DNA of 32,000 nt, taken from contig NZ_CP060397.1 in NCBI RefSeq assembly GCF_015840715.1, positions 1,662,686-1,694,685 on the forward strand. The letters are read 5' to 3'. The notes below the pieces were generated by a model. That model was given only the letters and a program-made list of their open reading frames with translations, was not told the DNA's origin and did no database searches. Shown here piece by piece: positions 1 through 17,524 of this stretch (the first letter of the stretch is position 1; every line of letters starts with the position of its first letter). The position numbers and the translations under genes were made by a program. The stretch is from Synechococcus sp. CBW1004. GTDB lineage: Bacteria; Cyanobacteriota; Cyanobacteriia; PCC-6307; Cyanobiaceae.

Positions 1-3000
1 CCAGATCAGGGCCCGACAGGAACAACGCCGGATCGTTGCCGCTGGCCATCAGATCCAGCGTCAGCTGACTGCGCACCTGGGCGTTGGTGCTGCCGTCGGT
101 ATCGAGGGCCAGGCCATTGGGATCCTGGTTGTAGGCCGGTGGGGCGGCGTCCGGCGCGAGCCTCACGGCATCGAGAATCGCCACGCTCTGTCCGCCAGTT
201 GGGGCCGCGTCAGCAGCGCTGCGCTGGGCGATGGCGAAGGACAGGCTGGTGGAGGCATCCCCGGCATTGTTCGCGTCGGCGCGGAAGCTGAGCGTGGCCT
301 TCCGGCTGGAGGGATCGACGGCGAACCCGAAGCCCGACAGCACCGGAAGGCTGCCACGACCATCGGCAGCGGGCTCGAACAACAGATGGCGCTCCTGCAT
401 CTGCCCCAGATCGGGCAGCTCCTCGACCTGAAGCGACAGGCGGGCGCCGCGCAGGCGCTGGAAGGCCTCAGAGTTGATCGGCACCGTGATCTCCTGACGA
501 GCCTCGCCAGGCTTGAAGATCACCAGTCCGGCCACCGGCGTGTAATGACGACCGGCTTCTGCGCTGCTGTTCGCCGGAGTCGAGGCGTAGGCCACCAGCT
601 GACGACTGCTGGTATCGAACCGCTCAACGACGAAGCGGACACGATCGCTGGCGTCGAAGGTCTTGTAGGACAGCAGGCGCAGGCCCCTGCCGAAATCGAC
701 CTCAGAGGAGATGGCGCTGGGAAGCAGTGGGTCGGCAGGCTCGCTGCTCGCCGACGGCTGCGAGGAGAGCGCAGCAGCCGCAGCCTGCGACCTAACAGCA
801 CTGACGTGGCTCGCCAGCCAGGCGTTCTCACCCGAGGGGGTCAGGGCGGTCTCTGAACTGGGAACAGCAACGTAGAGAAGGGCTGCGGTGGTGGAGCCGG
901 AGAAGGCATTCCAGCGCAACCCTGCGTACACCGTGTCACGGGAGGAATCGCGCTGCAGGTCGCCGCTCAGCAGGATGCTGTCAGTGGCGTCAGGCGTGAG
1001 GAAAAGGGTGTGGTTGTTGTTGATCGCATTGATAGCTGCTGCATCAATCTGCAGGGTATTGGCGCCATATCCCTGACTGGAGATCACCTCGATTGAACGC
1101 AACTGATTACCCGGACGAATCGAAAAAGCTGCAGGATTGATCGCAGCCGTGTTGAGACTGAAGTTCCAGTCCTGATTCACCTGCCCTTCGAGCTGGAGGC
1201 TGTCTACGCCGATGCCACCATCAACGCGGCGGAAGCGTGCATCGATGATGCTGATCGCGTCGTTACCGGATCCAGCCAGGATCAGATCACGACCTCCATG
1301 ACTGATGATGACATCGGAACCCTCCAGTGCATAGATCACGTCACCAAGAGGGGTTCCAATCTGCGTGTCATCGGCGGGCGTGCCGATGAGCGTGCCGATA
1401 TCGAGGAAGTCGCCACCAAACAGCGCGTATTGATTATCGAGGCCAAGCGAGGGGTTGCTGGGATCGCTGATCAGCAGATCCTGGAAGCCATCGCCATTTA
1501 TGTCGAGATTGGCATCGATAGAGTATCCAGCCAATGACTGCTGGGCAGCCGGAGCGAGGCTGGGATCGAGCGTGACGGCGTAGGTTTTGTTATCCGCAGA
1601 GACAACCGAAAAAAGGCGGCCACCTACAGTTGCCAACTGAGGGATCCCGGCAAAGCTGGTGGTATTAAACCCGGTGAACGCTTGCCCCGAGGACCAGTTC
1701 AATACAGGAGCGCCGCTGTTATTGGAACGGGTGGCGCTTGCCGTGTACAGCCGTGGGGAAGCCTTTGGAACGTTTGCCGTGAGGTAGAGCTGGGTGGAGG
1801 TGGCAGCCAAGGCCAGGTCCCCACTCGAAGTGGCTGTGGCACTGACAAACTGCACGTTGCCCCAGTTGTTGTCGAGCCAGGGAGTAGCCGTAGGCTGCAT
1901 CGTGATGCCGATGCCGGCTTCCGGATTTTTACTGGTGCCGCTGAAATAGGCCAACACCGTTCGCCCCTGGAAGCGCACGGCACTCAGCTGGCCGGAGCTG
2001 GTCTGCACACCGCCGCTATACAGAACCACACCACTGGTGCCGACAAAAGCGTCATCCGAACCCGCGCTTCCCGCCTGGAGGGAGCTGCCCCAAGACGAGC
2101 CCGTGCTGCCACTGCTCGACTGGGCCTGACTGGAGGGATCGCTGGAGAAGAGATAGTGAATTTTACTATCGGTACCGACAAAGTAGAGGGCCAGATACGA
2201 TCCCTCATTCACAAGCACTGGCGATGACAGGGCCTTCTCACCGTTGAGCGTGCTGACGACCGTCCAGACAGGATCGACAGCCGTGGGATCAGAGCAGTAG
2301 GCAAAGCCGATCACATTGTCTTCGGCACTCTTGCCACTACCAGTTGTGCTGGTGAAGGCAGCGTAAAGCCTGCCCTCGAACCAAGCAAAATTCGAAGCGG
2401 TCTTACCAGAGAGAATTGGCTGACTCCTGAACTGCCAACTGGAGTCAGCAAGCGTCCCGAAGTAATAGCTCCCAGTCAAGCTATTTGTCGAGGGAGCAAA
2501 AATCAGCCCTGAGCCATCGCCTGCCAGGGCCACCATGCCACCACCACCGTTAATTTTCGCACCTGTTGCCAGGGTCGGCGCTGCCGTCAGGCTGCTCGCT
2601 CCCTGGTAGCTCTGGATCCCTTCAAACCAGGTCTGCAGGCTGGGGATGCTGTCGCCGCCGGTGGGATCGTTGTAGGCATAGGTGTAGGGATCGAGCGCTG
2701 CCTTCAGGCCTGGGGTCGTCCAGATCGCTCCACTGCTGCTGCTGCTCAGGCCGGCCTGATTGAGGCTGAACTGGTTGTCGACCACATGGAACAGGGCCCC
2801 ATCCACGAGCACCGACTGGATGAACTGACCAGCGGTCTCCACTGGACTGAGGGCCAGGAAGACATCGTCGCAGCCATTGCCGTTGACATCGCCTGCAGCG
2901 CGGATGCTCCAGACGCCATAGCCGCTGCCGGCGGGGGCATAGGGATTGAGCAGGCCATCGGCGGCGAGGTAATCGGTATAGCCATCGCCATTGAGATCTC

Positions 3001-6000
3001 CATAGCCTGCGGCACTGTTCAGCCCCCCCTGACCAGTACTGGCGGCAGCCGGTTCCGGCAGCATCACGCCACTGGGAAGCAACAGGTTGCTGACCGTGAG
3101 CAGGGAGGCAGGATCGCTCGCCTTGGCCAGCATCTCGGCCTCCGTCACGGGCCATGACGGACTCAGCAGATTGCCTGCCGGGGTGCGCTGGGCAAACGCC
3201 AGTGCGGTCGCCACCTGCAGCGGCTTGGCGGCCGGAGCCGGCGCTCCGGTCGGTCGCAGCTGGGGCGCCTCCGTGCCCAGGGCGGGCGCCTCGAACGCCT
3301 GAATCAGAGCCTGGCTGGCACCCACCTGAACCTGGGCGGCCAGGTCCGTGGGCGTGGGGGCACCGAGCAGCAGCCGAGCCGTGCTGAGCGCCCTGGCGTC
3401 AGGGCCAGTGAACTGGCCGCTGCCGGTGGGGTCGTAGGCCACGTTGGCGGCGGTGACCATCAGATCGTCGTAGCCGTCGCCATTGACATCGCCGACTGCC
3501 TGCAGACTGGATGCGACCTGGCTGGCGCTGAGGCTGGCGGTGTTCGGCGCCCCGAAGAACTGGATCGCTTCCGAGGAGTTGATCCCGGCGGCCACCAGGG
3601 AAGGGGCCCTGGCGCCGGCGGCCTGGCTGTAACCGAGGGCGATCGCTGCGTTGGAGTCAAACGCGGCCAGACTGCCGAAATCAGCCACCCAGTTGGCGCC
3701 ATCACCGCTGCGGAGCAGCTGCGTCTTGTTGCCAGTGGCCGTGTCGGCATAGCTGAGCACGAGGTTCGTCCCATCGCTGGTGAGCGCCAGGCCCAGGCCA
3801 TTCGCCAGCACCGGCGGTGTGGTGCCCTCGTTCAGGGTCGATGGGAATTCCCAGGCAGCACTGCTGTCAACCTGGCTGTCTGGGGTGGTCGTGATGAAGA
3901 TTCTGCTGCTGGGGTTGCTGCTGGTGCCGCCGAAATAGGCGAGGTAGGTCTGGCCATTGAAACGGGTGGCGGCAATCGCGGAGCTGGCCGTCTGGGGGAA
4001 CGTCTGCGTGCCATTGGCATAGTTGATAGCCGTGGTGCTCCAACCGGAACTGCTGGCTGGGGAGGCGCTGTAGGCCTTGAGGATCAGATCGCGGGAATCG
4101 TTGGCGGTGAAGTAAACCGCCAACTTGTCGCCCTCGGTCAACAGCGTGGCCGCGGTGGCCGATTGGCCAGGAATCTGATACTGCGTGACCCAGGATCCAT
4201 TGACATAGCGCGTGATATTGATCAGATTGTTGCCTTCCCCCAGATAGCAGAGATAGAGCTCACCGTTGAACACAGCAATCGAGGGGCTCTTGTAGGTGGT
4301 CATGCCAGACGGCAACGCCTCCCACCCGCTCCAGGTGCTGCCGGCATCGGTGCTTTGGTTCCAGTAGATCCGGTTGTCGGTACCCTGCACCGCGAGGCTG
4401 ATCGTGCTGCCGCTGGTCGCCATGCTTGGCGCCGAGGGGGAAGCACCGCCGATGGCACCGCTCCACACCGGCTGGTTGACGGGATTGGCCACGCCGGCCC
4501 GCTGGCTGAGGCTCTGGCTCTGGCCGGCACCCAGCTCGGCCGTGGTGTTCAGCCAGGTGACGCCACTGCTGGTGCCGATCGCGGTGAGCTCAACCGCATC
4601 GTTGGAAGCGAGGCTGCTGTTGATCAGCAGGGCCCCTTGGTGGAAGAGCGGCGTGGTGGCCAGCTGGGTGTTCAGGCCTGCCACGCTGGCGAAACTCCAG
4701 AATGGCTCTTCGCCGGAGATACTGGCCGCAGCCAGATCCAGAGTTCCCAGCTGCACCGTGCCGGCGTTGGTGGTGTAGGTGAGGGCAGGGCCAGTGCTGG
4801 TGAGCGTCAAGCCCGGCGCCTGGTCTGCGACCCGATCGGCACTGAGCAGCGAGTCCAGACTGGTGTACGCCAGATCACTCGGCGTGGAGGCGATCAGTTC
4901 AACGGTGGGCTGGCCGAGGCTGGCGGCATCTGCGCTGCTGCCGCCATAGGCGAGGATCGTGCGACCGCCGCTGACGACACCGGACAGAGCCGTGAGGCTG
5001 GTGATCGGCTCTCCGGTGGGCGTGGTGATCGCCTGGGGGCTGGTCCAGTTGCCCTGGGGACCGTCGGAAGGGGTGAAGAAGGCCTGCTGGATGGTGCCAG
5101 CCTCCCCCAGCCAATAGAGGGCCAGCCGCGATCCCTCATCCAGGAGCAACGGTGGGGCGCTGGTGGTGAAACCAGGGAGGCGCTGCGGCACACTCCAGCC
5201 ATCAGCCTCACCATCGGGATTGAGGCTGGTGAGGCAGATCGTGCCCGTCGTGGCGTCCACATAGGCCAGCTGCAAGAGGCCATCGAAGTAGGCGATTGAG
5301 GCACCAAGCTTGGTGGCCACACCCGCCTGACTTTCAGTGGTGATGTCAAACCAGGCCTGCCAGGTGTTGCCACCATCACTGCTGCTGTTGATATAGAGAT
5401 TGGTGTTAGCCAGGCCCTTGACGACGCTGTAGAGGGTGTCGCCCACGGCCGTCATCGCCGGGGCCTGATCTGTGAGGCCATCACTGATCTGCTGAGCCAA
5501 CGGTGCGCTGTAAGGATCAACCAGCAGGCCAGCATTCTCGCCCAGCTGGAGAGAGCTGCTGACATCGCCAAACAACAGACCGGTGAGGCTGCCGGCGCCG
5601 GGGGAGTTGTCGCCCGGCACATCCACCTGGCGGAACAGAGCCAGATCGGAAAGGCCATCCCCATTCACATCGCCGGCGGCCAGCACCTGGGTGTCACTGC
5701 TGACACTGAAGCTGATGAAGCTCTTGGCGGCCTGAGCAAGAATGTCCTCGGTGGAGGCCCCCAGCTCAATGCGGATGGTGCTGGTCAGGGCGCCATCCTG
5801 ACGGGAGAAGAAATCCCCATAGCCGTCACCGTTGATATCACCGATGGAACGCAGAGAACCCTGCGCTGTACTGGCCAGGCCCTCGAGAATGAAGCCATTA
5901 TTGCTGGCAAGCTTGTTGAGCTGGAAGCTGCTGATGTCGGCGAGATAATCCTTGCCGTAGGTGATATAGGCACTACCGGCACCACGGGCGCCAAGCAGGA

Positions 6001-9000
6001 TGTCCGGGATACCATTGCCATCCACATCCTTGATGTTGAAACTGCCACGTCCGGTCTCGGCGTTGGCCACGGCATTGGACTCCACCAGCACATCCAGCGC
6101 CAGGCTGCCGGCGTTGTTGCTGACCGAGCCGATGCCGCCCGCACCGATCGTGCCGGTGTAGGGGCCATCGCCAGCGAGAAAGGCATTGGCGTAATCGATG
6201 CTGTCGGTCCCAAACACCAGATAGCCAGCACCCTGGCTGCTGCCGGCATTGGGGGCCTGAATCAGCACATCGTCATAGCCATCGTTGTTGACATCACCAC
6301 TGGCAAGTCCATAGCCGAATTGGTCTGTGGTGTCGTTGCCATAGAGGGTGAGGCCGGCACTGAGATAGGCCAGATACTGGGGGCTGCCGCTGCTCGCATC
6401 GACCAGGGCCGTTGCGGGAAGCTTCTCCGGGGCGATGAAATAGGTGGCGCCCGGCCCACCACTGGTCCCCGCACCGATCACCAGAGTCTTGGTGTTGGTG
6501 TTGTTGGGATCGGCAAAGGCCAGACTGGAGCCGAAGCCAGTAGGGCCGGTGTTCCAGGGCGAGGGTCCATAGAAGGTGGCCGTGGGCTGACTGACGGCAG
6601 ACGCGGCGGCGTAGTAGTAGACCGCACCCACTGCATTGGCGGTAAGACTCTGATCGACGTAGGAAGTGGCTTTGGCGATCGGATCGGTCATCAACGCCTT
6701 GAGCCGCTGCATATAGCCGCTGGCTTCCGCACCGTTGCCCTGGCTGGCGTTGGCGACATCCGCATAGCTGCCACTGCCCGCCGTGGTGTTGAGCGCGGAA
6801 CCAAGCTGCAACTTCAGCAGCGCGCCATCGCCAAAGGATCCTGGGCTGGAGTTGGCGTCCAGCTCGTTCTGCACGACCTGCTTGCCGCTGTACTGGAGCG
6901 CAGCGGTATAGCCACTGGCGGCGATCGCCACCTCGCCGGTCTCCGGCGAGGCCGTGATGGCGCTGCCGAGCTGCTCACCCCAGTAACTGTTGACCGTTTC
7001 GCCGAGGGGATTGAGGGATTTGAGGCTGCCGCCAGTCCCCAGCTGCTGACTGAGGCTGGGGTTTGGGCTGCCGAGAGCCTGAACCTTGGCGTTGAAGCGA
7101 TAGACGGCGCCGATGCTGACCGCCGTGCTGCTATCGCCGTTGACCAGCTGCCGTCGATAGCCAGGCGCACCGATGATCAGATTGGTGCCATCAAAGGCCA
7201 GTGCTGTGCCAAACAGGGCATTGCTGTTGTCGTCACCAGCCGGCAAGCCACCGGCCGCATCAGGTGTGAGCACGGTGACAACATCCCCGAGGTTTTCGGG
7301 ATTGCTGAGATCAAGAATCTCGGGGTTGGTGGCGAGATTTGCCTGGATCCAGCTGCCGTCGATGATATAAACAGTGCCGCCGAGATTGGTATTAGGTGCG
7401 GCAACGATCAACTCATCATGGCCATCGCCGTTGAGGTCCGCTACCAGCATCGTGTTGCCGATGTTGCCGCCCCAGCCAGCGGTGGGATCCGCCTGGATCA
7501 GCAGGCCGCCACCACTGCTGGGGTTGCGGGCATCGTTCAGCAGGGGCAGATTGGGCACCGCATCAGAGAAACTGCTGCGAGCCAGCGCATTCAGCCAGGT
7601 GATCGGTGATTCAGCTGTGCTGGGATTGCCGCTGCTGGGATATTGGCCGGTGTACTGAATCCAGATCCGGCCGGCCGGATTGCTGCCGGCTGTGGGGGTG
7701 AAGGGCTGGGCAATCGCCAGCCAGCCGGAAGGGGTACTGGTGTCGCTGTTGAAGCGTCCGGCCATGGTGGAGTAGCCGAATCCCTGGATCGGCGTGGGCA
7801 GAGCGGGATTGGAAGCTGATGGCACACTCTGGCGTTGGATCACAACGCCGCTGTCGATGTACTGCAGCTGACTGGTGGCCTGCTCAAGCACATCGGCTGT
7901 GGCGATGGCTCTCGGGAAGAAGGACTTTTTCTGCAGCGCGGATGGATTGAGTTGCTGCCGCACCGGCAGCAACCGCGAAGGCGTCACCGTGCCCGACAAC
8001 ACCGTGGGTGGAGGGGTGGTACTGGTGAGGTTGGGCGCGAAGTTGAGGTTGTAGCGAACGGCATAAGCGTTGCCTGATTGCCGCTGCTGCAACGCCAGCT
8101 CCTCGCTGAGGGGAACCAGCAGGTTGAGTTCCGGAGTATTGCTGAGGAAGGTGTAGCTGAGGTTGGTGTCGCTGCCGGCGGGCTGCAGCTGCTGCAGGGT
8201 GCTGTTGCCCAGCAGGATCTGGTCGGGAGCCAGGTTGAAGGCGCTGCCAACGGGCGTGAAGGCACCGTTGACCACCGTGCCGTACTGGGCGGTGACCGAA
8301 GCGAGAGTGCGCTGGGCAGGGTTGAAACTGCTCCAGTCGTCGCCGGAGACCGTCACGATCGCCAGATCTTCAGCCAGCGTTGGCCGCGTGGCACTGGGCA
8401 GGGTGGCGATGGGGGCGGCCTGCAGGTTGAGGGGCCGGGCCTGCGTCCAGACCGCATCACCACTGGCATCCGTGGCGTAGGTGGCGGTGAAGGTGGCATT
8501 TTCAGCGCCGTTTGGATCCACACTGCGTGCCTGCCAGTGTTGATTGATCGCGCCGATCTCAACACCGGGATTCTGATTAAGCTGGGCGATGTCGTAGCCC
8601 AGTGCCTGCACCAGCTCCACAGCCTCCCGCCCGGACATCATCGGCCAGGGATTCTGGGGATCGAAAACGGCTGGCTTGGCTTCCACCGCCGTCAAGGCAG
8701 TGGTGTAGAAAGCCACTTCATCGATGCTGCCACCGGCATTTCCATAGAGAAGCAGGGCTGATTCGGCCTCCGTGGTGGGGGAGAACACATCATCGATCGA
8801 CAGCGGCGCGGCTGCAGCCTTGCCGTCGATGTAGAGCGAAGCCGTACCGGTGAGCAGCGGAACCTGATATTGCCTGTCAGCTATCGTTGCCAGGGCATAG
8901 TCTGGCAGGTAGGTGGCAACGACATAGTGCCAGTTACCATCATTGATGGCGGCGTCACTGAGCAGGCTGGAAGCGGCCCCCACATCAAAGACAAGCTTGC

Positions 9001-12000
9001 CGCTGGCGTTGATGGAAACGGCCGTGGATTGATTGAGCTGGAAGTTGAGCGCGTAGGCCGCGTATTGTTCCTGGGCGGTGGCGGATGGGGTCGAAGCAGA
9101 AGGCGCGGAGCTACTGGCAGGATCAAGGGTGAAGTTCACCTTGGGCTTGCCATAACTCTGCTGATAAGCCCACAGATTGGCGAACAGACTTTGAAGATTG
9201 GCGTTGTCTGTCCAGCTGCTGCTGTCGGCAGTGACCACGCCGGAGTTGATCAGGGCCGAACTGGTGTCAACAGCAATGGCATTGAGGCTGGAGCTGGGAT
9301 TGCCATCGACGAGGGCGGTGTTGAACTGCAGCTCTGTGACTGGCACTGTGGCCAGAAGGCTGGCACTGACCCCGGAGCTCCCCGTCAGCACATCGCTGCT
9401 GAGGCCGTAGCTGGCCAGAAACTGGGCCATGCCGGGCAGGGCATTGCCAGCCACCAGGTTGGTGATGCTGAGAGCGTTGCTGTAAAGGTTGCTGCCGCCA
9501 GGATTACTGGCGCCGCTGGCGGTGCTGTTGGCGCCATCAGCCACCAGGCCCCAGATGTAGCCATAGAGGTCGTTTTCCTGACCGCTGGGGATGGCGCTGC
9601 TGGCGATCAGTCCCTGGGCGGCGGCCTGGGCCCAGGTGAGCTGCTCCACCACAAAGCTCGAGGTGAGCGACCAACCCTGGGGCAGCACGGCGGCGCCCAC
9701 GGCTGCTTCGGAGGGTTGCCCCAGCGCCAGCAAGCCTGCGCCCTCGGGGTTCGTGCCGGCGGGGGCCTTGACCCAGAACTCCAGGCTGTAGGGACTGCGG
9801 GGCAGGGCTTGGCCGGCTGTGGTGCTGGGCACGCCGGACTGGGCCGCCAGTGCCTGCTCATAGCCGTTGAGGGAGCCCACGCCGATGCTGAGCACACCGG
9901 TGCCATCGCTGTTCTGCACGGCGGCATCACTGTTGATCTGCAGGGCGCCGGCGACGCCGAATTGCAGACCGGTGCTGGAGGCGCTGGTGAGAGTCAGGGG
10001 GGAATTGGCGAGGTTGCCGAGGTTGTTGTTGCTCAGTCCGGGCCCCTCCAGATTCAAGGGGTCGTAGACGACGGGGCTGCTGTTGAGCACCGACTGCTGG
10101 TAGGGCGTGGCGACGTACTGGCTCCAGCTCAGCGAGGGCGTCTGCACCAGACTGCCGTCGGCCGCCAGGCTCCAATGGGAGCTGAGGTTGAGATCGGTGA
10201 CGCCCAGCCCCACCTCGGTGCTCGGATCCCAGGGCACCTCCTGGGGGGTGGAGAAGCGGCCGCTCAGGGGGTCGAACAGGGCGGATTTGATCACCGTGGG
10301 GATGAAGCCGTTCTGCAGGCTGGAGAGCTGGGGCTTCAGCCCCTGCATGGCCTCAATCGAGGTTTCCGTCCACACCATCAGCACTTTGGGGATGCCGGAG
10401 CCCACGGGGGTGGTGTCGACCACCTGGAGGTTCTGGATGATCGCGCCGTCAGCGGCGATGTAGTAGAGCGGATTGGTCTCCCACTCGCCGCGCCGATTTT
10501 TGTAAGAGTAGGCAATTCGCTGATTGCTGTAGACATCCCCGATAAATGACTGATAGCTCTCCAGGCCATTGGCCCCTGAATAGGGTATGGCGCGTTGCAC
10601 AACCCCTTGGCTGGTGAGATTTTCCACCCAGGCCACCAGTGGCTCCCCGGTACTGCTCACCTGAGTGGAAACCGGCTGACTGGCGAGGGAGAACTCCGGC
10701 AGGGTGGATTGATAGCCATCCACCGGCAACACGGCGCGGTTGTTGGTCACACCCCAATACGCTGGCTGCGTTGGGGTGGCCGCCATCCAGCTGATGGCAT
10801 TGAGGTAGGTGCTGTTGCCATCGGAATCGCGGTAGACAACGCGGCTCTGCAGCGGCAGCGCCTGCTGATTGGCATACAGGGGAGCGCTGTCGGTGTTGCC
10901 CGCAGCGATGTAGACGCCGGCGCCGGTGGGCTCGCTGCCAGGGGCGAAGGCCTGGGCAGAAAAGCTGCCGTCATCAACAAAGTTGTTGTAACTGGCGCTG
11001 GATGGTGTGAGGCTGAGGCTGGCGGCAGCCGTAGGCAACACACCCTCAGGAAGCTGCAGATCAAGGCTGTAGCCAGCCGCACTAGCCACGGCCGTGGTGT
11101 AGAACGGCTGATCAAGGATCACCTTCTGGATCTTGCCGCCCACCAGCACCACCGTGGCGTAGGTGCTGGTGGCACCCTGCAGATCGGTGATAGGCCCTGA
11201 ACCATCGGCCGCAGATATCGTGCACAGCACTCGGCTGTAGGTGTAGGGGGTGTTGTCACCGGGCACGGGGGCCGTGGCGGTGGCGGTACTGGCATCCCAG
11301 AGGGGATAGCCCGAGCCACCGGAGGCCACCGTGACCTGGCTGAACACGGAGATCGGCGTCTTGCTCAGCTGGGCAGGCGGATCTCCAGCCGGAGGGTTGG
11401 TGGTGACCAGAATGGTGGGCAGCACGACACTGCCCTGGGCCACGGCAGCCGGGTCGGCAAGGCTGGTGCCGGTGGCGGGATTGACGGTGTAGAACTCTGG
11501 CACCAGCACCACTTCGCCAGCGGAGTCGGTGTTGCCGATGGTGCTGTAGGGGGGCAGGTAGAGATAGGTGCCCGTCTTGGTGATCACCACACTGGTGATG
11601 GCGCCACCCGTCACCACGATGCTGGCTTCCGCATAGCTGTTGCTATCCTCCGGCACGACACCCAGCAGGCGCACATTCGTGTAGCTGCCATCATTCAAGC
11701 CACGGCCGCTGCTGCCACTCAGCTGGAACAGTCGGGTGCCGACCAGATCAGTGGGCCCTGCAGACACCACCAACGAATAGAGCGTGCTGACCGTGCTGCT
11801 CAGCGTGGAGGCACCCGCCCCATCACTGGCCGTCGATCCGAGGCTTGGGTTGTAATAGAAAGGCGAAGGGTCCGTGCCTTCGACCGGCTGCGCAGCACCC
11901 ACACCCTCCCCGGCAAGCCCGGGAGACCCTTGCGGCGCCGATGTGGACGGCGGCGCTGGGGTGACGGTGGGATCGCCCGAAGCAGTGTAGCTGGTGGTAT

Positions 12001-13987
12001 AGCGAAGAACCGGCTGGAAGGCGCCTAGCAGACTGAAGCCGACTTCTGCGAGAAACCTGTCATTAAAAAAGGCGTTATTACTGGCTCCAAGCAAGCCAGC
12101 ACTGAAGCTGATAACATTGAATAAATTAGCCTCAAAGCCCAGTCCATTCCAGGTGATACCGGCACTCAGCGCTGTGGCGTTGTAGAGGCTCTGCTTGCTC
12201 TCCAGATTGGCCGGCTGCCGCACGGCCACACCCACTGGAGCGAGCAGGGACGAAGCTGTACCAACCAGGGCAAGCGCATAATTGATATAGGCCCCAGCGC
12301 GGGCATCAGGGTTATTGAGAGCACTCTGTTCCTCAAGCGCTGCTCCACGGAGGTTCACCCCATTGAACCCATTATACCCACGAGCAAGTGGCTTGTATAT
12401 CCCAGCACTGGCCAGAAAGCGAAGCGCGGTGGCGCTGTCTGCCGCCAACCCCACCACTTCGGGCAGGATTCCACCTGCGCCGGGGATGGGCAACCCATTA
12501 TTGGAGAGCGTTTGCACCCACTGATAACCAAAGGAATCAGCGGCCTTGATATTAAAGACTTGAAGGACCGGAAATCCAGCGTCTGCCTTGAGCAGCTTTC
12601 TCCGGGTATAGAAGGCACCCAGGTCGAAGGAAACTGCCTCCCGACTGGCGACCTTGATCGGGAGCTTTGGCTGGGCGCTCAGACTGGAATAGAGAAATTC
12701 CGAGCCAACTGATCCCGCAGCCCCAAATGCATAATTCTTGGAGACTTTAGCCTCCCCTGCAAGCAAAAACCTCACTTGATCATTAAGAGATCGCACTGCA
12801 TCCGTTGTCGAATTAACGAATGCCAACTTCGCAAAGCTATCAAATGCCGGCCCCTCTCCCGTGTTCAACAAGCCAAACGATCCCCTCACGTAAACGCCCC
12901 AGCGCCAGTCGCCACTACCACTACTCGCCCTGCTGACATCACCTCCAATGAACGCAGAGTTTCCGCCTGTGAGAACAATGGGTCCCAGGCCCTTGCTGAG
13001 AAAGGATGATGACTGGCTCCGCGGCCGTTCGAAATCGTTACTAAGAACGCTAAGCCTGTTGCTCACTCTCCGGCCATCTTCGAGAATGACAACCGGCTCA
13101 CCAGCGGCGGAGGCGAAGGAGCTGGAGCGCGATGAGATATCGTCGCTGACGAAATTTTTATTCTGTGCAGTATATGTAGGGAAACTGATCTGCCACTTCA
13201 CAGGCCGCCCCAGCGCGCCAAAGTTCAGAAAGCCATTGCCGCCCGTGGTCGTCTGGCCACCCAGGAAGGTTCCACTTGCCTCCACGCCTCCCAAGCCGCT
13301 GCCCGGCAGCGCATTGTTGCCGCTGAAGACCAGAGTGCTGCGGTTGAACTGGATCCCCTCCCCCGTGGCCACCCTCGGCGCCGCCAGGGGCGCGCTGGCG
13401 GGATTGAGCACCAGGTCCTGCAGGCTGCTGCCGCCCGCCGCCTGCAGGCCATAGCCGCTGGGGCTGTCGGCATCGCGCTGGAGAGCGAAGTCTTCGCGAT
13501 ACAGCTCGGTGTCGGGCCTGGCGATCCCCAGGACAGTGGCCGTGCCCTCGCCTCCAGGCCGTTCCTCCTGCTTCTGGCTCACCAGCGAAAAGCCGCCGTT
13601 CAGCCCCGCCACCAGGCTGTACTCCTTCTCGTTGACGCCATTGCTGGTCAGTGGCTGCGGAGCGCTCCACTGCAGCTCGCCGTCGCTGCTCCACTGCCCG
13701 AACACCGCCTGGATCTCACTGCCATTGCCGCGGCCGGTGCGGTAGGCCACCACCAGGCCCGGATTCCAGGTGCCCGAACTGGAGCTGGAACTCGTGGGCC
13801 AGAGCTTGTCGAGGTAGAGCACGCTGAGGCTGTCGCCTCCCACCGCGCCGGGCACCACCTCGCCCTGCTCCCAGCGCCCCGCTTCAGGATTCCACTGGCA
13901 CTGCAGCAGCAGGCCGTTATCCACAAGGAAGCCATGGCTGGTGCCGTTGGCATCGATGACGGCCTGAAAGGAGCTGGTGGTCGGCAT
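1..13987 (-). CDS. Giant multi-repeat secreted/cell-surface protein, partial (at least 4662 codons in window; 3' end lies beyond base 1)
   Basis: Own translation of the minus strand. ATG 13987-13985 is preceded by AAGGGGG 8 nt upstream. An alternative in-frame ATG lies at 14059 and an in-frame stop at 14090-14092. There is no stop down to base 2, and no listed minus ORF shares this frame. Motifs: DxNGDGxxD FG-GAP/VCBS-like loops (ADLNGDGHDELIVAAP ~7395-7445; GDVNGDGYDDLMV ~3460-3497); Asp-boxes SSDGGNTW (5351-5387) and STDAGSTW (4322-4357); LamG-like NDGNWHYVVATY..LYIDGK..IDEVAFY (~8700-8945); RTX-like GGRDLILAGSGNDAI (~1255-1345); Calx-beta-like AEAGRHYTPVAGLVIFKPGEARQEITVPI (~470-660). The N-terminus MPTTSSFQAVIDANG has no signal-peptide character. 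Confidence 0.85.
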   Translation of the reverse strand, partial: MPTTSSFQAVIDANGTSHGFLVDNGLLLQCQWNPEAGRWEQGEVVPGAVGGDSLSVLYLDKLWPTSSSSSSGTWNPGLVVAYRTGRGNGSEIQAVFGQWSSDGELQWSAPQPLTSNGVNEKEYSLVAGLNGGFSLVSQKQEERPGGEGTATVLGIARPDTELYREDFALQRDADSPSGYGLQAAGGSSLQDLVLNPASAPLAAPRVATGEGIQFNRSTLVFSGNNALPGSGLGGVEASGTFLGGQTTTGGNGFLNFGALGRPVKWQISFPTYTAQNKNFVSDDISSRSSSFASAAGEPVVILEDGRRVSNRLSVLSNDFERPRSQSSSFLSKGLGPIVLTGGNSAFIGGDVSRASSGSGDWRWGVYVRGSFGLLNTGEGPAFDSFAKLAFVNSTTDAVRSLNDQVRFLLAGEAKVSKNYAFGAAGSVGSEFLYSSLSAQPKLPIKVASREAVSFDLGAFYTRRKLLKADAGFPVLQVFNIKAADSFGYQWVQTLSNNGLPIPGAGGILPEVVGLAADSATALRFLASAGIYKPLARGYNGFNGVNLRGAALEEQSALNNPDARAGAYINYALALVGTASSLLAPVGVAVRQPANLESKQSLYNATALSAGITWNGLGFEANLFNVISFSAGLLGASNNAFFNDRFLAEVGFSLLGAFQPVLRYTTSYTASGDPTVTPAPPSTSAPQGSPGLAGEGVGAAQPVEGTDPSPFYYNPSLGSTASDGAGASTLSSTVSTLYSLVVSAGPTDLVGTRLFQLSGSSGRGLNDGSYTNVRLLGVVPEDSNSYAEASIVVTGGAITSVVITKTGTYLYLPPYSTIGNTDSAGEVVLVPEFYTVNPATGTSLADPAAVAQGSVVLPTILVTTNPPAGDPPAQLSKTPISVFSQVTVASGGSGYPLWDASTATATAPVPGDNTPYTYSRVLCTISAADGSGPITDLQGATSTYATVVLVGGKIQKVILDQPFYTTAVASAAGYSLDLQLPEGVLPTAAASLSLTPSSASYNNFVDDGSFSAQAFAPGSEPTGAGVYIAAGNTDSAPLYANQQALPLQSRVVYRDSDGNSTYLNAISWMAATPTQPAYWGVTNNRAVLPVDGYQSTLPEFSLASQPVSTQVSSTGEPLVAWVENLTSQGVVQRAIPYSGANGLESYQSFIGDVYSNQRIAYSYKNRRGEWETNPLYYIAADGAIIQNLQVVDTTPVGSGIPKVLMVWTETSIEAMQGLKPQLSSLQNGFIPTVIKSALFDPLSGRFSTPQEVPWDPSTEVGLGVTDLNLSSHWSLAADGSLVQTPSLSWSQYVATPYQQSVLNSSPVVYDPLNLEGPGLSNNNLGNLANSPLTLTSASSTGLQFGVAGALQINSDAAVQNSDGTGVLSIGVGSLNGYEQALAAQSGVPSTTAGQALPRSPYSLEFWVKAPAGTNPEGAGLLALGQPSEAAVGAAVLPQGWSLTSSFVVEQLTWAQAAAQGLIASSAIPSGQENDLYGYIWGLVADGANSTASGASNPGGSNLYSNALSITNLVAGNALPGMAQFLASYGLSSDVLTGSSGVSASLLATVPVTELQFNTALVDGNPSSSLNAIAVDTSSALINSGVVTADSSSWTDNANLQSLFANLWAYQQSYGKPKVNFTLDPASSSAPSASTPSATAQEQYAAYALNFQLNQSTAVSINASGKLVFDVGAASSLLSDAAINDGNWHYVVATYLPDYALATIADRQYQVPLLTGTASLYIDGKAAAAPLSIDDVFSPTTEAESALLLYGNAGGSIDEVAFYTTALTAVEAKPAVFDPQNPWPMMSGREAVELVQALGYDIAQLNQNPGVEIGAINQHWQARSVDPNGAENATFTATYATDASGDAVWTQARPLNLQAAPIATLPSATRPTLAEDLAIVTVSGDDWSSFNPAQRTLASVTAQYGTVVNGAFTPVGSAFNLAPDQILLGNSTLQQLQPAGSDTNLSYTFLSNTPELNLLVPLSEELALQQRQSGNAYAVRYNLNFAPNLTSTTPPPTVLSGTVTPSRLLPVRQQLNPSALQKKSFFPRAIATADVLEQATSQLQYIDSGVVIQRQSVPSASNPALPTPIQGFGYSTMAGRFNSDTSTPSGWLAIAQPFTPTAGSNPAGRIWIQYTGQYPSSGNPSTAESPITWLNALARSSFSDAVPNLPLLNDARNPSSGGGLLIQADPTAGWGGNIGNTMLVADLNGDGHDELIVAAPNTNLGGTVYIIDGSWIQANLATNPEILDLSNPENLGDVVTVLTPDAAGGLPAGDDNSNALFGTALAFDGTNLIIGAPGYRRQLVNGDSSTAVSIGAVYRFNAKVQALGSPNPSLSQQLGTGGSLKSLNPLGETVNSYWGEQLGSAITASPETGEVAIAASGYTAALQYSGKQVVQNELDANSSPGSFGDGALLKLQLGSALNTTAGSGSYADVANASQGNGAEASGYMQRLKALMTDPIAKATSYVDQSLTANAVGAVYYYAAASAVSQPTATFYGPSPWNTGPTGFGSSLAFADPNNTNTKTLVIGAGTSGGPGATYFIAPEKLPATALVDASSGSPQYLAYLSAGLTLYGNDTTDQFGYGLASGDVNNDGYDDVLIQAPNAGSSQGAGYLVFGTDSIDYANAFLAGDGPYTGTIGAGGIGSVSNNAGSLALDVLVESNAVANAETGRGSFNIKDVDGNGIPDILLGARGAGSAYITYGKDYLADISSFQLNKLASNNGFILEGLASTAQGSLRSIGDINGDGYGDFFSRQDGALTSTIRIELGASTEDILAQAAKSFISFSVSSDTQVLAAGDVNGDGLSDLALFRQVDVPGDNSPGAGSLTGLLFGDVSSSLQLGENAGLLVDPYSAPLAQQISDGLTDQAPAMTAVGDTLYSVVKGLANTNLYINSSSDGGNTWQAWFDITTESQAGVATKLGASIAYFDGLLQLAYVDATTGTICLTSLNPDGEADGWSVPQRLPGFTTSAPPLLLDEGSRLALYWLGEAGTIQQAFFTPSDGPQGNWTSPQAITTPTGEPITSLTALSGVVSGGRTILAYGGSSADAASLGQPTVELIASTPSDLAYTSLDSLLSADRVADQAPGLTLTSTGPALTYTTNAGTVQLGTLDLAAASISGEEPFWSFASVAGLNTQLATTPLFHQGALLINSSLASNDAVELTAIGTSSGVTWLNTTAELGAGQSQSLSQRAGVANPVNQPVWSGAIGGASPSAPSMATSGSTISLAVQGTDNRIYWNQSTDAGSTWSGWEALPSGMTTYKSPSIAVFNGELYLCYLGEGNNLINITRYVNGSWVTQYQIPGQSATAATLLTEGDKLAVYFTANDSRDLILKAYSASPASSSGWSTTAINYANGTQTFPQTASSAIAATRFNGQTYLAYFGGTSSNPSSRIFITTTPDSQVDSSAAWEFPSTLNEGTTPPVLANGLGLALTSDGTNLVLSYADTATGNKTQLLRSGDGANWVADFGSLAAFDSNAAIALGYSQAAGARAPSLVAAGINSSEAIQFFGAPNTASLSASQVASSLQAVGDVNGDGYDDLMVTAANVAYDPTGSGQFTGPDARALSTARLLLGAPTPTDLAAQVQVGASQALIQAFEAPALGTEAPQLRPTGAPAPAAKPLQVATALAFAQRTPAGNLLSPSWPVTEAEMLAKASDPASLLTVSNLLLPSGVMLPEPAAASTGQGGLNSAAGYGDLNGDGYTDYLAADGLLNPYAPAGSGYGVWSIRAAGDVNGNGCDDVFLALSPVETAGQFIQSVLVDGALFHVVDNQFSLNQAGLSSSSSGAIWTTPGLKAALDPYTYAYNDPTGGDSIPSLQTWFEGIQSYQGASSLTAAPTLATGAKINGGGGMVALAGDGSGLIFAPSTNSLTGSYYFGTLADSSWQFRSQPILSGKTASNFAWFEGRLYAAFTSTTGSGKSAEDNVIGFAYCSDPTAVDPVWTVVSTLNGEKALSSPVLVNEGSYLALYFVGTDSKIHYLFSSDPSSQAQSSSGSTGSSWGSSLQAGSAGSDDAFVGTSGVVLYSGGVQTSSGQLSAVRFQGRTVLAYFSGTSKNPEAGIGITMQPTATPWLDNNWGNVQFVSATATSSGDLALAATSTQLYLTANVPKASPRLYTASATRSNNSGAPVLNWSSGQAFTGFNTTSFAGIPQLATVGGRLFSVVSADNKTYAVTLDPSLAPAAQQSLAGYSIDANLDINGDGFQDLLISDPSNPSLGLDNQYALFGGDFLDIGTLIGTPADDTQIGTPLGDVIYALEGSDVIISHGGRDLILAGSGNDAISIIDARFRRVDGGIGVDSLQLEGQVNQDWNFSLNTAAINPAAFSIRPGNQLRSIEVISSQGYGANTLQIDAAAINAINNNHTLFLTPDATDSILLSGDLQRDSSRDTVYAGLRWNAFSGSTTAALLYVAVPSSETALTPSGENAWLASHVSAVRSQAAAAALSSQPSASSEPADPLLPSAISSEVDFGRGLRLLSYKTFDASDRVRFVVERFDTSSRQLVAYASTPANSSAEAGRHYTPVAGLVIFKPGEARQEITVPINSEAFQRLRGARLSLQVEELPDLGQMQERHLLFEPAADGRGSLPVLSGFGFAVDPSSRKATLSFRADANNAGDASTSLSFAIAQRSAADAAPTGGQSVAILDAVRLAPDAAPPAYNQDPNGLALDTDGSTNAQVRSQLTLDLMASGNDPALFLSGPDL

Positions 13988-14012
13988 GACAGACGCCCCC
14001 TTCTGGAGGCGC

Positions 14013-14026
14013 GGATCAGGTGATCC
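14013..14026. promoter_or_regulatory. Perfect inverted repeat GGATCA-GG-TGATCC upstream of the giant ORF (candidate operator)
   Basis: Read directly as ggatcaggtgatcc, 26-39 nt upstream of ATG 13987. Another GATCC follows at 14032-14036. The function is pure inference. Confidence 0.2.
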
Positions 14027-14251
14027 TTCGATCCTGCGCTGGCTGCAGCGCTTTGCCATTCCTACAAATGTCGGGTCTGTGGGCTTCCGTCACCACCGCT
14101 GCAGCGGCTCTGCACGAATGGCCGCGCAGTCGCGATGGCGGCAAGCTCCGCCAATCCAGGCTCGCCTGGGGCGGCATCGGCAAGAACTCGAGCGCCCTCC
14201 TGGAAGACGGAGCGACCCATCGCTGCGGCGGGGGCTCCTGTCGCGCGCGTT

Positions 14252-14950
14252 TCAGCGCCCGACGCCCCGTTCGCGGATCAGGCCCAGGGCCAGAGCCCTG
14301 GCCAGAACCTCGGTGCGGTTGCAGACCCCCAGCTTGCGGATCAGGCTGCTGACGTAGTCGCGCACTGTCGTGGTGGCGATGCCGCTCTCCTGGGCGATCG
14401 CCTTGTTGGTGAGCCCGCGCGACAGACCGACCAGCACCTGCTGCTCGCGGCCGCTGAGGACGATGGCGGCCTCCTGCTGCAGCCGCTCGCCAAGACGCGG
14501 GTCGAGGAAGGTCTGCCCATGGCGCAGCGCCTGCAACGCCCGGATCAACGTGCCGCTGCCGAAGCTCTCCACATGCACGATCGCCTGGGCCTGGCAATCA
14601 GCCAACGACTCGGCCGTCAACCAATGATCCTGCTGCACCAGCAGCAGGATCAGAACCCGGAACTGGCTGCGCCGCAGGCGGCGGATCAGCCGACGGCCCT
14701 GATCGGCGGCGATGCTGTCGGTGAGCATCACCAACACGTCGCCGCCCTCAGCGGCCTGCTGGTGCACCAGATCCCACACCTCCTGCTCGTTGATGCCGCT
14801 GCCGCAGAAATTCGGCACGCGCGCCGTCAAGGCCAGCCGCGCCACCAGATGGGCCTCCAGCCACGAGCCGGTGCCGGCCACGATCGGCCAGCTGCCCAGC
14901 AGCGCATTCACCAGCCGGGTGCGGCGGATGAAGCCCGGGCTGGTGGGCAC
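14252..14950 (-). CDS. LuxR/NarL-family transcriptional regulator with a degenerate receiver-like N-terminal domain
   Basis: The C-terminal GerE-type HTH reads LSGREQQVLVGLSRGLTNKAIAQESGIATTTVRDYVSSLIRKLGVCNRTEVLARAL. The N-terminal half has receiver-like spacing (PIVAGTGSW.., VLVMLTDS, RVLILLLVQQD, AIVHVES) but lacks the acidic pair and the conserved Lys. The first start is GTG 14950; GTG 14911 is also possible. Confidence 0.8.
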   Translation of the reverse strand: MPTSPGFIRRTRLVNALLGSWPIVAGTGSWLEAHLVARLALTARVPNFCGSGINEQEVWDLVHQQAAEGGDVLVMLTDSIAADQGRRLIRRLRRSQFRVLILLLVQQDHWLTAESLADCQAQAIVHVESFGSGTLIRALQALRHGQTFLDPRLGERLQQEAAIVLSGREQQVLVGLSRGLTNKAIAQESGIATTTVRDYVSSLIRKLGVCNRTEVLARALALGLIRERGVGR

Positions 14951-17324: not shown

Positions 17325-17524
17325 GAGCAGTAGGTAGAGAAGCGGGTGAATGGTGAGCCCTCGTCAGAACCCAGCGGCCCTCGTTGTCATCACAGGGCTT
17401 CAGATCGGGCGAGACCCTAGCTGACAGAACACCTCATGACTCCTCCCCGGCACAACACCCAGTGACGCGCAGCTTGCTGCAGGAGCGATGCCCCCACCGT
17501 TGCGTGTCGGATCCGGAAGTCGTT

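What the first reader, a model, noticed from the sequence alone, without database searches (positions are those of the whole stretch)
12000..13200. AT-rich ~1.2 kb island inside the giant ORF encoding a beta-barrel-like segment
Hand GC counts on about ten 60-nt lines between 12000 and 13200 give 42-58%. Two lines sampled in the rest of the ORF (11401-11460, 13201-13260) give about 65-68%. There is no frame break. The encoded segment (about aa 262-662) differs from the rest of the protein. It is Gly/Ser/Asn/aromatic-rich with alternating hydrophobic patterns: DWRWGVYVRGSFGLLNTGEGPAFDS, AVSFDLGAFYTRRKLL, VLQVFNIKAADSFGYQW, ITWNGLGFEANLFNVISFSAGLLGASNNAFFNDRFLAEVGFSLLGAF. This resembles autotransporter or OMP translocator barrels that end in an aromatic residue. 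A barrel-like module near the N-terminus of a protein with RTX-like features and no Sec signal would be an unusual anchoring design, reminiscent of an inverse autotransporter but not fitting that class. The compositional break also suggests the module was acquired or exchanged horizontally.
Basis: partly seen in the sequence, partly recalled or inferred. Interest (0 to 1): 0.7.

Follow-up and report, generated by a model that had tools for sequence, protein, structure and literature searches.

The report
Hypervariable AT-rich module in giant cyanobacterial protein
The AT-rich stretch is real, but it is the fast-evolving, strain-variable module of a roughly 5000-residue surface-type protein of freshwater picocyanobacteria, present with the same dip in every relative found; nothing supports a recently imported cassette, and the membrane-barrel idea could not be tested structurally.

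Summary
Observation confirmed and sharpened. The giant ORF is on the minus strand (ATG 13987, runs off the left end of the window). GC3 falls from 0.82 to 0.59 over codons 268-725 (window 13186-11813). GC1 and GC2 stay flat, so the dip is synonymous.

The module is not a lineage-specific acquisition. All six relatives that cover it carry a homologous ~450-aa module at the same position with the same GC3 trough, and module trees match flank trees.

It is the hypervariable part of the protein:
- 59% identity to the ortholog P0001, against 90-95% in the flanks.
- A second pair (L003/L010) repeats the pattern.
- In a 99.4%-identical population contig (L015), 34 of 55 differences fall in these 1.4 kb. 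They split 22 nonsynonymous to 7 synonymous and are clustered.

No homolog exists outside the family in 1.84 billion representative proteins. Pfam, NCBIfam, PHROGs and PDB gave no significant hit. AlphaFold failed twice (pLDDT 27-32). There is no Sec signal and no excess beta-type hydrophobic periodicity.

Best reading: a diversifying, cell-proximal module of an RTX-type giant protein, with synonymous sites relaxed toward mutational equilibrium. The fold and the anchoring role remain undetermined.

The parts
2..13987 (-). Giant ORF, aa 1-4662. It is truncated by the left end of the window. The complete ortholog P0001 is 4957 aa.
   Evidence: Open frame. Pfam finds FG-GAP, BNR_2, RTX and Calx-beta. 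About 88% identical outside the module to P0001 on locus L001.
13313..13987 (-). Conserved N-terminal domain, aa 1-225. GC3 is 0.87. It has no signal peptide and contains an Asp-box-like motif, SSDGELQW.
   Evidence: 94% identical to P0001 and 40-49% to distant family members. GC3 is 0.64-0.90 in this part in the six members measured (0.64 in L010).
11813..13186 (-). GC3 trough, codons 268-725: the AT-rich island as defined by composition.
   Evidence: Change-point analysis gives GC3 0.59 inside and 0.82 outside, with LLR 42.3.
11897..13312 (-). Hyper-divergent module as defined by divergence, aa 226-697.
   Evidence: 32-74% identity per 50 aa to P0001, dS >= 1, dN 0.2-0.4. 34 of 55 differences to the population contig L015 fall here, binomial p = 8.5e-16.
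12743..13180 (-). Most variable core of the module, aa ~270-415. It is Ser-rich and indel-rich across the family.
   Evidence: 16 of the 22 nonsynonymous population differences lie here. It has the lowest identity to P0001, 32% at aa 301-350, and large gaps in the family alignment.
11897..12745 (-). More conserved half of the module, aa 415-697.
   Evidence: Family alignment. 52-66% identity to P0001.
12221..12277 (-). Gly/Ala-rich hydrophobic stretch ALALVGTASSLLAPVGVAV, aa 571-589.
   Evidence: Kyte-Doolittle 19-residue mean is 1.9. The top hydrophobic segment of each of the six members compared falls in this part of the module and appears to align to one position; 19-residue means are 1.2-1.9.
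11843..11863 (-). PFYYNPS motif (aa 709-715), marking the return to conserved sequence after the module.
   Evidence: Conserved in window, L001, L003 and L010; L005 has PFLYAPQ.
13988..14090 (-). Conserved 5' leader or promoter-proximal region of the giant gene.
   Evidence: The last ~100 nt before the ATG are nearly identical to L001, while the rest of the intergenic region is not. A 1-nt indel rules out the upstream ATG at 14059 as the start.
14252..14950 (-). LuxR/GerE-family regulator directly upstream, on the same strand.
   Evidence: Pfam GerE. A homolog lies upstream of the giant gene in L001, L003, L005, L006, L007, L008, L009, L010 and L012.
5639..6319 (-). FG-GAP repeat region, aa 2557-2783.
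   Evidence: Pfam PF01839 at 3e-31 and PF13517 at 6e-15.
1259..1357 (-). RTX nonapeptide repeats, aa 4211-4243.
   Evidence: Pfam PF00353 at 24.2 bits, cut-off 23.
461..652 (-). Calx-beta-like segment, aa 4446-4509.
   Evidence: Pfam PF03160 at 25.9 bits, just below the cut-off of 27.

Best explanation
Window 13312-11813 (minus strand) encodes an orphan module of about 470 residues. It sits directly after the conserved N-terminal domain of a ~5000-residue RTX/FG-GAP/BNR protein found in freshwater picocyanobacteria.

Shown:
- The module is ancestral to the family.
- It is the fastest-evolving and most polymorphic part of the protein at every time-scale sampled.
- In every lineage it carries a deep trough in synonymous-site GC.

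Inferred mechanism:
- The module is a diversifying, strain-specific part of a cell-surface protein.
- Amino-acid variants are tolerated or favoured, probably by frequency-dependent pressure from phages or grazers, or by co-variation with a strain-specific cell envelope.
- Short recombination or multi-nucleotide events spread the variants.
- Alleles are too divergent to be homogenised, and codon and amino-acid constraint is weak. The GC-favouring force that keeps the rest of the genome at GC3 ~0.85 (GC-biased gene conversion or selection on codon usage) is therefore ineffective here.
- Synonymous sites consequently sit near the AT-richer mutational equilibrium.

By analogy with type-1-secreted RTX adhesins, the conserved first ~225 residues would be the cell-retained end. 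The module would then be the first segment at or just outside the outer membrane. This topological step is analogy only.
For: Conserved position and homology across the family:
- Alignment of eight N-terminal regions.
- Shared start and N-domain.

GC3 trough in all six members that cover the module:
- Module GC3 is 0.19-0.45 below the N-domain.
- It is 0.31-0.33 in L003 and L010, whose neighbouring genes have GC3 ~0.75, and 0.59-0.66 in GC-rich hosts.

Window vs P0001/L001:
- aa identity is 94% before the module, 59% inside and 90-95% after it.
- dS is ~0.2 in the flanks and >= 1 inside. dN is ~0.03 in the flanks and 0.2-0.4 inside.
- Neighbouring LuxR gives dS 0.28 and dN 0.056 as a genomic baseline.

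Independent pair L003/L010:
- aa identity is 86-90% before, 48-68% inside and 78-84% after.

Population contig L015 (99.44% identical over 9.8 kb):
- 34 of 55 differences fall in the module, p = 8.5e-16.
- They split 22 nonsynonymous to 7 synonymous, against 6 to 13 elsewhere in the gene (Fisher p = 0.003).
- They are clustered: 17 gaps of <= 10 nt, against 7.1 expected.

GC3 is equally low at conserved (0.61) and variable (0.59) residues of the module. The effect is therefore regional and not per-site.

Polarised differences: GC->AT 7 to AT->GC 10 inside the module, against 13 to 2 outside (Fisher p = 0.012). This fits a module at compositional equilibrium and a remainder held above it.

The link between recombination and higher GC3 in bacteria is described in PMC4450053 (abstract seen; content from my own knowledge of the paper). 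RTX adhesin architecture with an N-terminal retained module is from bioRxiv 10.1101/2025.09.30.679566.
Against: - dN/dS between species is below 1: 0.2-0.5 in one pair and 0.5-0.7 in the other. Within-population pN/pS is only about 1. Positive selection is therefore not demonstrated, and simple relaxed constraint gives a similar picture.
- Only one population-level comparison exists. Both sequences are probably metagenome assemblies, so SNP clusters could be consensus or chimera effects.
- Nei-Gojobori dS is saturated and not corrected for composition. Part of the dS excess may only reflect weaker codon bias.
- Outside the module, GC3 does not correlate with amino-acid identity (rho = 0.10, not significant).
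- No structure, localisation or secretion evidence exists. No T1SS genes are seen next to the gene in the window or in L001.
- No retention-module HMM hit.
Confidence: 0.6

Rival explanations
1. Relaxed-constraint spacer. The module is a weakly constrained stalk or linker, partly disordered. It drifts faster than the rest without any diversifying selection, and AT-biased mutation lowers its GC3.
For: - dN/dS is below 1 in both species pairs.
- pN/pS is about 1, not clearly above it.
- The core is Ser-rich and indel-rich.
- AlphaFold gives no confident fold.
- GC->AT and AT->GC changes are balanced inside the module.
Against: - Motifs and a hydrophobic stretch are conserved across lineages whose N-domains are only 40-50% identical, which argues for a folded, functional domain in the C-terminal half.
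- Length is conserved at 435-511 aa.
- Differences are strongly clustered.
- A nonsynonymous excess of about 12-fold per codon within one population is large for drift alone.
Confidence: 0.25
2. First reader's reading. The module is an outer-membrane beta-barrel (or other membrane-embedded anchor) that fixes the N-proximal end of a type-1-secreted giant protein in the outer membrane.
For: - Some strand-like alternating segments, especially in L003 and L010.
- The two-sequence AlphaFold model draws long hairpins at aa ~359-510, but at pLDDT <= 37.
- One sub-threshold Porin_4 hit in L003, E = 0.012.
- Conserved aromatic-ending motif LGAFQPVLRY.
- A conserved hydrophobic stretch could touch a membrane.
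Against: - There is no Sec signal to reach the periplasm and the BAM machinery.
- No significant hit to any barrel family in Pfam, NCBIfam or PDB, by sequence or by profile.
- Period-2 hydrophobicity is not above shuffles, z 0-1.2, against 2.7 for the OmpA control.
- Ala 13% and Leu 10%, plus a 19-residue hydrophobic run, are atypical of barrels.
- Extreme sequence variability is unusual for membrane-embedded strands.
Confidence: 0.08
3. Recent horizontal acquisition or cassette swap from a lower-GC donor into this genome's gene.
For: Sharp compositional boundaries. Saturated dS against the closest ortholog while the flanks have dS ~0.2.
Against: - The module and its trough are present in every relative.
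- Module GC3 is lowest (0.31-0.33) in the two GC-poorer loci and 0.59-0.66 in the GC-rich ones, so it does not point to one donor pool.
- Groupings are the same in the N-domain, the module and the downstream region.
- No phage or plasmid relatives and no flanking repeats.
- The only relative in 1.84e9 representative proteins is the ortholog itself.
Confidence: 0.05
4. Programmed diversification: gene conversion from silent cassettes, or retroelement-guided (DGR-like) mutagenesis aimed at this segment.
For: Clustered and multi-nucleotide differences between window and L015, for example three consecutive bases at 12302-12304 and at 12749-12751.
Against: - No second copy of module DNA or protein exists in the 32-kb window or in any fetched locus.
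- No reverse transcriptase was found among the neighbouring ORFs scanned.
- The variable tract is 1.4 kb, about ten times a DGR variable region.
- Only ~32 kb of the genome was visible.
Confidence: 0.02

Closest known systems
Type-1-secreted RTX adhesins (LapA, MpIBP, FrhA type)
   Same: A giant protein with no Sec signal, RTX nonapeptide repeats near the C-terminus, a conserved N-terminal domain and Ca-binding modules (Calx-beta, FG-GAP). These adhesins have an N-terminal part that stays at the cell.
   Different: No retention-module HMM hit. Pfam detects no tandem Ig-like extender array. No adjacent T1SS or LapG/LapD-type genes. In RTX adhesins the N-terminal region is reported as highly conserved while the extender number varies. 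Here the segment right after the N-domain is the hypervariable part.
SwmB and other giant cell-surface proteins of marine Synechococcus
   Same: A megadalton-class surface-type protein of picocyanobacteria, encoded in a variable genomic neighbourhood. swmB is a known giant gene (PMC7522525).
   Different: No sequence relationship was found: searches with the module and with the N-terminal 1000 aa returned only P0001. All related contigs whose source is named come from freshwater or river material. No function is known.
Hypervariable regions of bacterial surface proteins under diversifying selection (general phenomenon; my own knowledge)
   Same: Divergence and nonsynonymous polymorphism are concentrated in one segment, changes are clustered and mosaic-like, and the flanks are conserved.
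   Different: Here the variable segment also has a deep synonymous-GC trough conserved across the family. No positive selection (omega > 1) has been demonstrated.
Inverse autotransporters (intimin/invasin) and classical autotransporter barrels
   Same: Only the position of a putative anchoring module near the N-terminus of a long surface protein.
   Different: No Sec signal, no HMM match and no significant strand periodicity.

Membership tests
Outer-membrane beta-barrel (autotransporter / inverse autotransporter / porin) | N-terminal Sec signal peptide for delivery to the periplasm and the BAM machinery | tested here: not met
   The N-terminus MPTTSSFQAVIDANGTSHGF has no basic n-region and no hydrophobic h-region. 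The start is conserved in all relatives, and the upstream ATG is out of frame in L001. Tested by inspection; no signal-peptide predictor was available.
Outer-membrane beta-barrel (autotransporter / inverse autotransporter / porin) | Sequence or profile match to a known barrel family | tested here: not met
   Pfam gave 0 hits for the window module at E <= 10. One relative hit Porin_4 at 15.8 bits, cut-off 27. NCBIfam gave 0. PDB phmmer and profile searches gave nothing relevant.
Outer-membrane beta-barrel (autotransporter / inverse autotransporter / porin) | Series of amphipathic strands with period-2 hydrophobicity | tested here: not met
   Mean beta hydrophobic moment against 300 shuffles gives z 0.0-1.2 in six family members. 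This is a crude test.
Outer-membrane beta-barrel (autotransporter / inverse autotransporter / porin) | Closed barrel with a hydrophobic belt in a 3D model | tested here: inconclusive
   AlphaFold2 with a single sequence gave pLDDT 32.4, and with a two-sequence alignment 26.7.
RTX / type-1-secreted giant adhesin | RTX nonapeptide (beta-roll) repeats near the C-terminus | tested here: met
   PF00353 at aa 4211-4243, 24.2 bits against a cut-off of 23. It is a single short block, and is marked faint in P0001.
RTX / type-1-secreted giant adhesin | N-terminal retention module | tested here: inconclusive
   No NCBIfam or Pfam hit in aa 1-729. A conserved N-domain does exist, but its fold was not modelled.
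RTX / type-1-secreted giant adhesin | Tandem array of Ig-like extender domains | tested here: not met
   Pfam finds no Ig-like repeat family in 4662 aa, and the DNA repeat scan finds no long tandem repeats in the gene.
RTX / type-1-secreted giant adhesin | C-terminal secretion signal and a cognate ABC/MFP/TolC system | not testable with these tools
   The C-terminus lies outside the window. P0001 ends ...KIHGLQVPLF. No T1SS genes are in the window or in L001, but they need not be linked to the gene.
Horizontally acquired compositional island | Deviant composition relative to the host | tested here: met
   GC3 0.59 against 0.82.
Horizontally acquired compositional island | Absent from close relatives, or phylogenetically incongruent with the flanks | tested here: not met
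   Present in all six relatives that cover the position. Groupings are the same in all three partitions.
Horizontally acquired compositional island | Mobility signatures: flanking repeats, integrase or transposase, phage or plasmid relatives | tested here: not met
   No repeats at the borders. No phage or plasmid tblastn match. PHROGs gave nothing significant.
Cassette- or DGR-based programmed variation | Donor copy (silent cassette or template repeat) of the variable segment | tested here: not met
   None in the window or in any fetched locus, at DNA or protein level. Only 32 kb of the genome was visible.

The most novel reading that the evidence does not exclude
The module could be a previously unknown kind of cell-envelope anchor or interaction domain: either membrane-inserting through its conserved Gly/Ala-rich hydrophobic stretch, or a barrel. 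It would tether a Sec-independent giant protein to the picocyanobacterial outer membrane. Its hypervariability and family-wide synonymous AT-richness would then reflect an arms race at the cell surface together with local escape from GC-biased gene conversion. If so, it would be a natural within-gene experiment on what sets bacterial GC content.
Probability: 0.12. Interest if true: 0.75.

Novelty: new variant of a known kind. Interest (0 to 1): 0.45.

Why it matters
Picocyanobacteria are major freshwater and marine primary producers. Their cell-surface genes are where phage and grazer pressure acts. This work defines an unannotated giant-protein family with a conserved LuxR-type regulator upstream. 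Only about a dozen contigs were found in very large public collections. It also pinpoints the segment that varies between, and apparently within, populations.

The segment is an orphan domain with no detectable relative or predicted structure. It therefore marks a gap in fold and function knowledge.

The same synonymous-GC trough recurs in six lineages with different base composition. The within-gene contrast is 0.87 against 0.60, and it holds at conserved and variable residues alike. This makes a clean test bed for whether recombination-linked forces or selection keep bacterial GC3 high.

For annotation practice it is a caution: a sharp GC break inside a gene need not mean horizontal transfer.

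Tried and rejected
- Word-indexed protein searches with the module, the N-terminal 1000 aa and the family alignment all returned nothing. This probably reflects candidate capping by low-complexity words. The exhaustive search did find the ortholog P0001.
- The second hit of that search, P0002, a repeat-rich 3074-aa protein (its sequence, with many near-identical tandem repeats, suggests Bacteroidota; not checked), matched at 29% in 13 short stretches. I judged it to be repeat and composition noise.
- AlphaFold2 on the module alone and on a two-row alignment gave pLDDT 32 and 27. I did not run fold searches because a model of this quality gives meaningless matches.
- The profile search of PDB gave one irrelevant hit at E = 0.27.
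- PHROGs, NCBIfam and Pfam gave nothing significant.
- Internal-repeat search by hhalign between five sub-segments gave all probabilities below 1%.
- No silent cassettes or template repeats were found.
- Rfam found nothing in the gene, and promoter and terminator scans were at background.
- An Akashi-type per-site codon-accuracy effect was rejected, because GC3 is equally low at conserved and variable residues.
- A transmembrane helix is only borderline: KD19 is 1.2-1.9 and the stretch is not uniformly hydrophobic across members.
Full report
**1. What is at the coordinates**

The 600-nt GC profile drops to 0.54-0.56 between 12001 and 13200, against 0.64-0.69 on either side. The only long open frame across this region is on the minus strand. 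It runs from 14089 to 2 and off the left end of the window.

I use aa N = window 13987-3(N-1).

Pfam on the 4662 residues in the window finds the following:
- FG-GAP repeats at aa 2557-2783;
- BNR_2 at aa 3204-3358;
- RTX nonapeptides at aa 4211-4243;
- a near-threshold Calx-beta at aa 4446-4509.

Pfam finds nothing in aa 1-729, even at E <= 10.

The neighbouring genes are cyanobacterial: ChlI-type Mg-chelatase, DUF3370, a CAAD-domain protein and cytochrome c. A Yfr1 sRNA lies at 29603-29659. The related contigs whose source is named come from freshwater or river material, and include a Synechococcaceae MAG. The host is therefore a GC-rich freshwater picocyanobacterium. This is an inference.

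**2. The dip is synonymous**

- In 100-codon windows, GC3 is 0.86 for aa 1-250, 0.56-0.61 for aa 250-700 and 0.74-0.92 afterwards. GC1 and GC2 hardly change.
- GC3 is lower than in the rest of the gene for 14 of 16 amino acids.
- A likelihood change-point puts the trough at codons 268-725, which is window 13186-11813. GC3 is 0.59 inside and 0.82 outside. The LLR is 42.3, against at most 8.7 in 100 permutations.

Composition differs only modestly: more Phe, Arg and Lys and less Thr, while Gly, Ser and Asn are not enriched.

**3. Relatives**

- Three word-indexed searches found nothing.
- The exhaustive search of 1.84 billion representative proteins found one true relative. P0001 is 4957 aa and 59% identical over the whole module, at the same position.
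- Its contig (L001) has the same LuxR-VTT-giant gene order.
- Pattern scans anchored on the conserved N-terminus found L003 and L004 among GTDB genomes, and L005-L014 among JGI metagenomes.
- All begin MP[YT][AT]SS[IF]Q...DANG...QCQWNPE.
- In all six that extend far enough, a weakly conserved module of 435-511 aa follows the N-domain. It shares the motifs V[KR]WQ, GSFG, AxxSxG[YF]xWxxT[LI]S and LGxxxP. It ends before a conserved PFYYxPS motif, which L005 has in variant form (PFLYAPQ); the L007 contig ends before that point.

**4. The trough is family-wide**

In every member, GC3 is high over the first ~200 codons and then falls sharply across the module. GC3 by region:

| Locus | N-domain | Module | Rest of gene |
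|---|---|---|---|
| window | 0.87 | 0.60 | 0.76 |
| L001 | 0.88 | 0.59 | 0.80 |
| L005 | 0.85 | 0.66 | 0.76 |
| L007 | 0.90 | 0.66 | - |
| L003 | 0.78 | 0.33 | 0.58 |
| L010 | 0.64 | 0.31 | 0.61 |

Neighbouring core-like genes in L003 and L010 have GC3 ~0.75. Module GC3 is lowest in the two GC-poorer loci and does not point to one donor. The identity matrices give the same groupings for the N-domain, the module and the downstream region: window with L001, and L003 with L010.

No phage or plasmid relatives exist, and there are no border repeats. A lineage-specific horizontal acquisition is therefore not supported.

**5. The module is hypervariable at three time-scales**

(a) Window against P0001:

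| Region | aa identity | dS | dN |
|---|---|---|---|
| aa 1-225 | ~94% | ~0.2 | 0.01-0.04 |
| aa 226-697 | 32-74% per 50 aa | 0.75 to saturated | 0.19-0.41 |
| next ~200 aa | 92-98% | 0.2-0.4 | ~0.03 |

The adjacent LuxR gene gives dS 0.28 and dN 0.056 as a genomic baseline.

(b) The independent pair L003/L010 shows 86-90% identity before the module, 48-68% inside and 78-84% after it. dN is 0.2-0.5 in the module, against 0.06 in the N-domain.

(c) Contig L015, from another assembly, is 99.44% identical to window 17683-7846.
- 34 of its 55 differences lie in the 1416 nt of the module (binomial p = 8.5e-16). Only one lies in the 3.7 kb of upstream genes.
- Changed codons split 22 nonsynonymous to 7 synonymous in the module, against 6 to 13 elsewhere in the gene (Fisher p = 0.003). 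This corresponds to pN/pS of about 1.1 against about 0.16 (my arithmetic).
- The differences are clustered: 17 gaps of <= 10 nt, against 7.1 expected.
- Sixteen of the 22 replacements fall in aa 271-413. This is the Ser-rich, indel-rich core, and also the least conserved stretch against P0001.

Several short metagenome contigs end inside or at the edge of the module: L004, L006, L008, L009, L021 and L022. This fits strain-level variation breaking assemblies, but it is anecdotal.

**6. Why the GC3 is low (inference)**

- Within the module, GC3 is the same at residues conserved (0.61) and not conserved (0.59) with P0001. The effect is therefore regional.
- I polarised the window/L015 differences with L001 as outgroup. 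Outside the module, GC->AT to AT->GC is 13 to 2, as expected when GC content is held above mutational equilibrium. Inside the module it is 7 to 10 (Fisher p = 0.012).
- The numbers are small, and the outgroup is saturated inside the module.
- The pattern fits a module at its mutational equilibrium, where the GC-raising force is ineffective. Recombination-associated GC increase in bacteria is the subject of PMC4450053. Highly diverged alleles recombine poorly, which would explain the coincidence of divergence and low GC3. Weaker selection on codon usage is an alternative that I cannot separate from this.

**7. Structure and the barrel idea**

Evidence against, or failing to support, a barrel:
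- No Sec signal.
- No significant HMM or PDB match. The single Porin_4 hit, in L003, is 15.8 bits against a 27-bit cut-off.
- The period-2 hydrophobic moment is not above shuffles (z 0-1.2).
- No internal repeats.

A Gly/Ala-rich hydrophobic stretch (aa 571-589 in the window, KD19 = 1.9) recurs at the same alignment position in all members, with KD19 1.2-1.9. It could be a buried core element or a membrane-interacting segment.

AlphaFold2 failed with one sequence (pLDDT 32.4) and with two (26.7). The two models disagree on secondary structure. The barrel is therefore unsupported and topologically awkward, but not excluded. I give it about 8%.

**8. Comparison with known systems**

The protein works most like a type-1-secreted RTX surface protein: no signal peptide, RTX repeats near the C-terminus and a conserved N-terminal domain.

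It does not meet the minimal RTX-adhesin definition given in bioRxiv 10.1101/2025.09.30.679566. No retention-module match was found and no Ig-like extender array was detected. In those adhesins the N-terminal part is reported as conserved, whereas here the segment next to it is the variable one.

It shares size and habitat logic with SwmB (PMC7522525), but no sequence relationship was detected.

**9. Verdict**

- The horizontal-acquisition reading is not supported.
- The barrel reading is not supported, but the fold is unresolved.
- What is there is an orphan, family-wide, hypervariable module with a conserved synonymous-GC trough, in an uncharacterised family of giant picocyanobacterial proteins.

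Caveats:
- Only one within-population comparison was available.
- The sequences are metagenome-derived.
- dS is saturated and not corrected for composition.
- There are no functional data.

Noticed in passing
window 14252-14950 (-), and the loci L001, L003, L005-L010, L012: A LuxR/GerE-family regulator lies upstream of the giant gene, on the same strand, in every family locus with enough upstream DNA. A VTT-domain membrane protein is often between or beside them. This looks like a conserved regulator-plus-giant-gene cassette.
   Followed up: partly
window 13988-14090: The ~100 nt before the giant gene's ATG are nearly identical between window and L001, while the rest of the intergenic region is only ~65% identical. 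This is a likely conserved leader or promoter-proximal element.
   Followed up: partly
window 17553-17852 and 20453-20752: A 300-nt direct repeat, 86% identical. One copy is in the 3' part of the S33 alpha/beta-hydrolase gene. The other is in a ~1.1-kb stretch (17357-18501) where no ORF had a Pfam hit. It may be a gene fragment or pseudogene.
   Followed up: no
window 29603-29659 (-): Yfr1 cyanobacterial sRNA: Rfam RF01116, 61.8 bits, full length.
   Followed up: no
window 9062-9090 (aa 1633-1642 of the giant protein): A second tight cluster of 8 differences to the population contig L015 within 29 nt. It lies in a shallower GC3 dip (aa 1550-1850, GC3 0.67-0.71).
   Followed up: no
window ~2140-2590 and ~1090-1690 (aa 3800-3950 and 4100-4300): Further GC3 dips (0.57-0.66) in the same ORF. 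They coincide with lower identity to P0001 (52-70% per 50 aa). The second dip includes the RTX repeats.
   Followed up: partly
window 13660-13690 (aa ~100-110): The conserved N-terminal domain contains an Asp-box/BNR-like motif (SSDGELQWS, SxDxGxxW), conserved in all relatives. A BNR_2 region also occurs at aa 3204-3358.
   Followed up: no
window 15134-16498 vs L001 1-8090: The neighbourhood upstream of the LuxR-VTT pair differs between the two close strains. The window has an amidohydrolase between LuxR and VTT. L001 instead has, beyond VTT, a lipase, a type I restriction-modification system and a TIR/SEFIR protein, so the flank is variable and defence-island-like.
   Followed up: no
L004, L006, L008, L009, L021, L022 (contig ends): Six short metagenome contigs that carry the gene's 5' end stop at aa 203-396, at or inside the module. 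This is consistent with assembly breaks caused by strain variation.
   Followed up: partly
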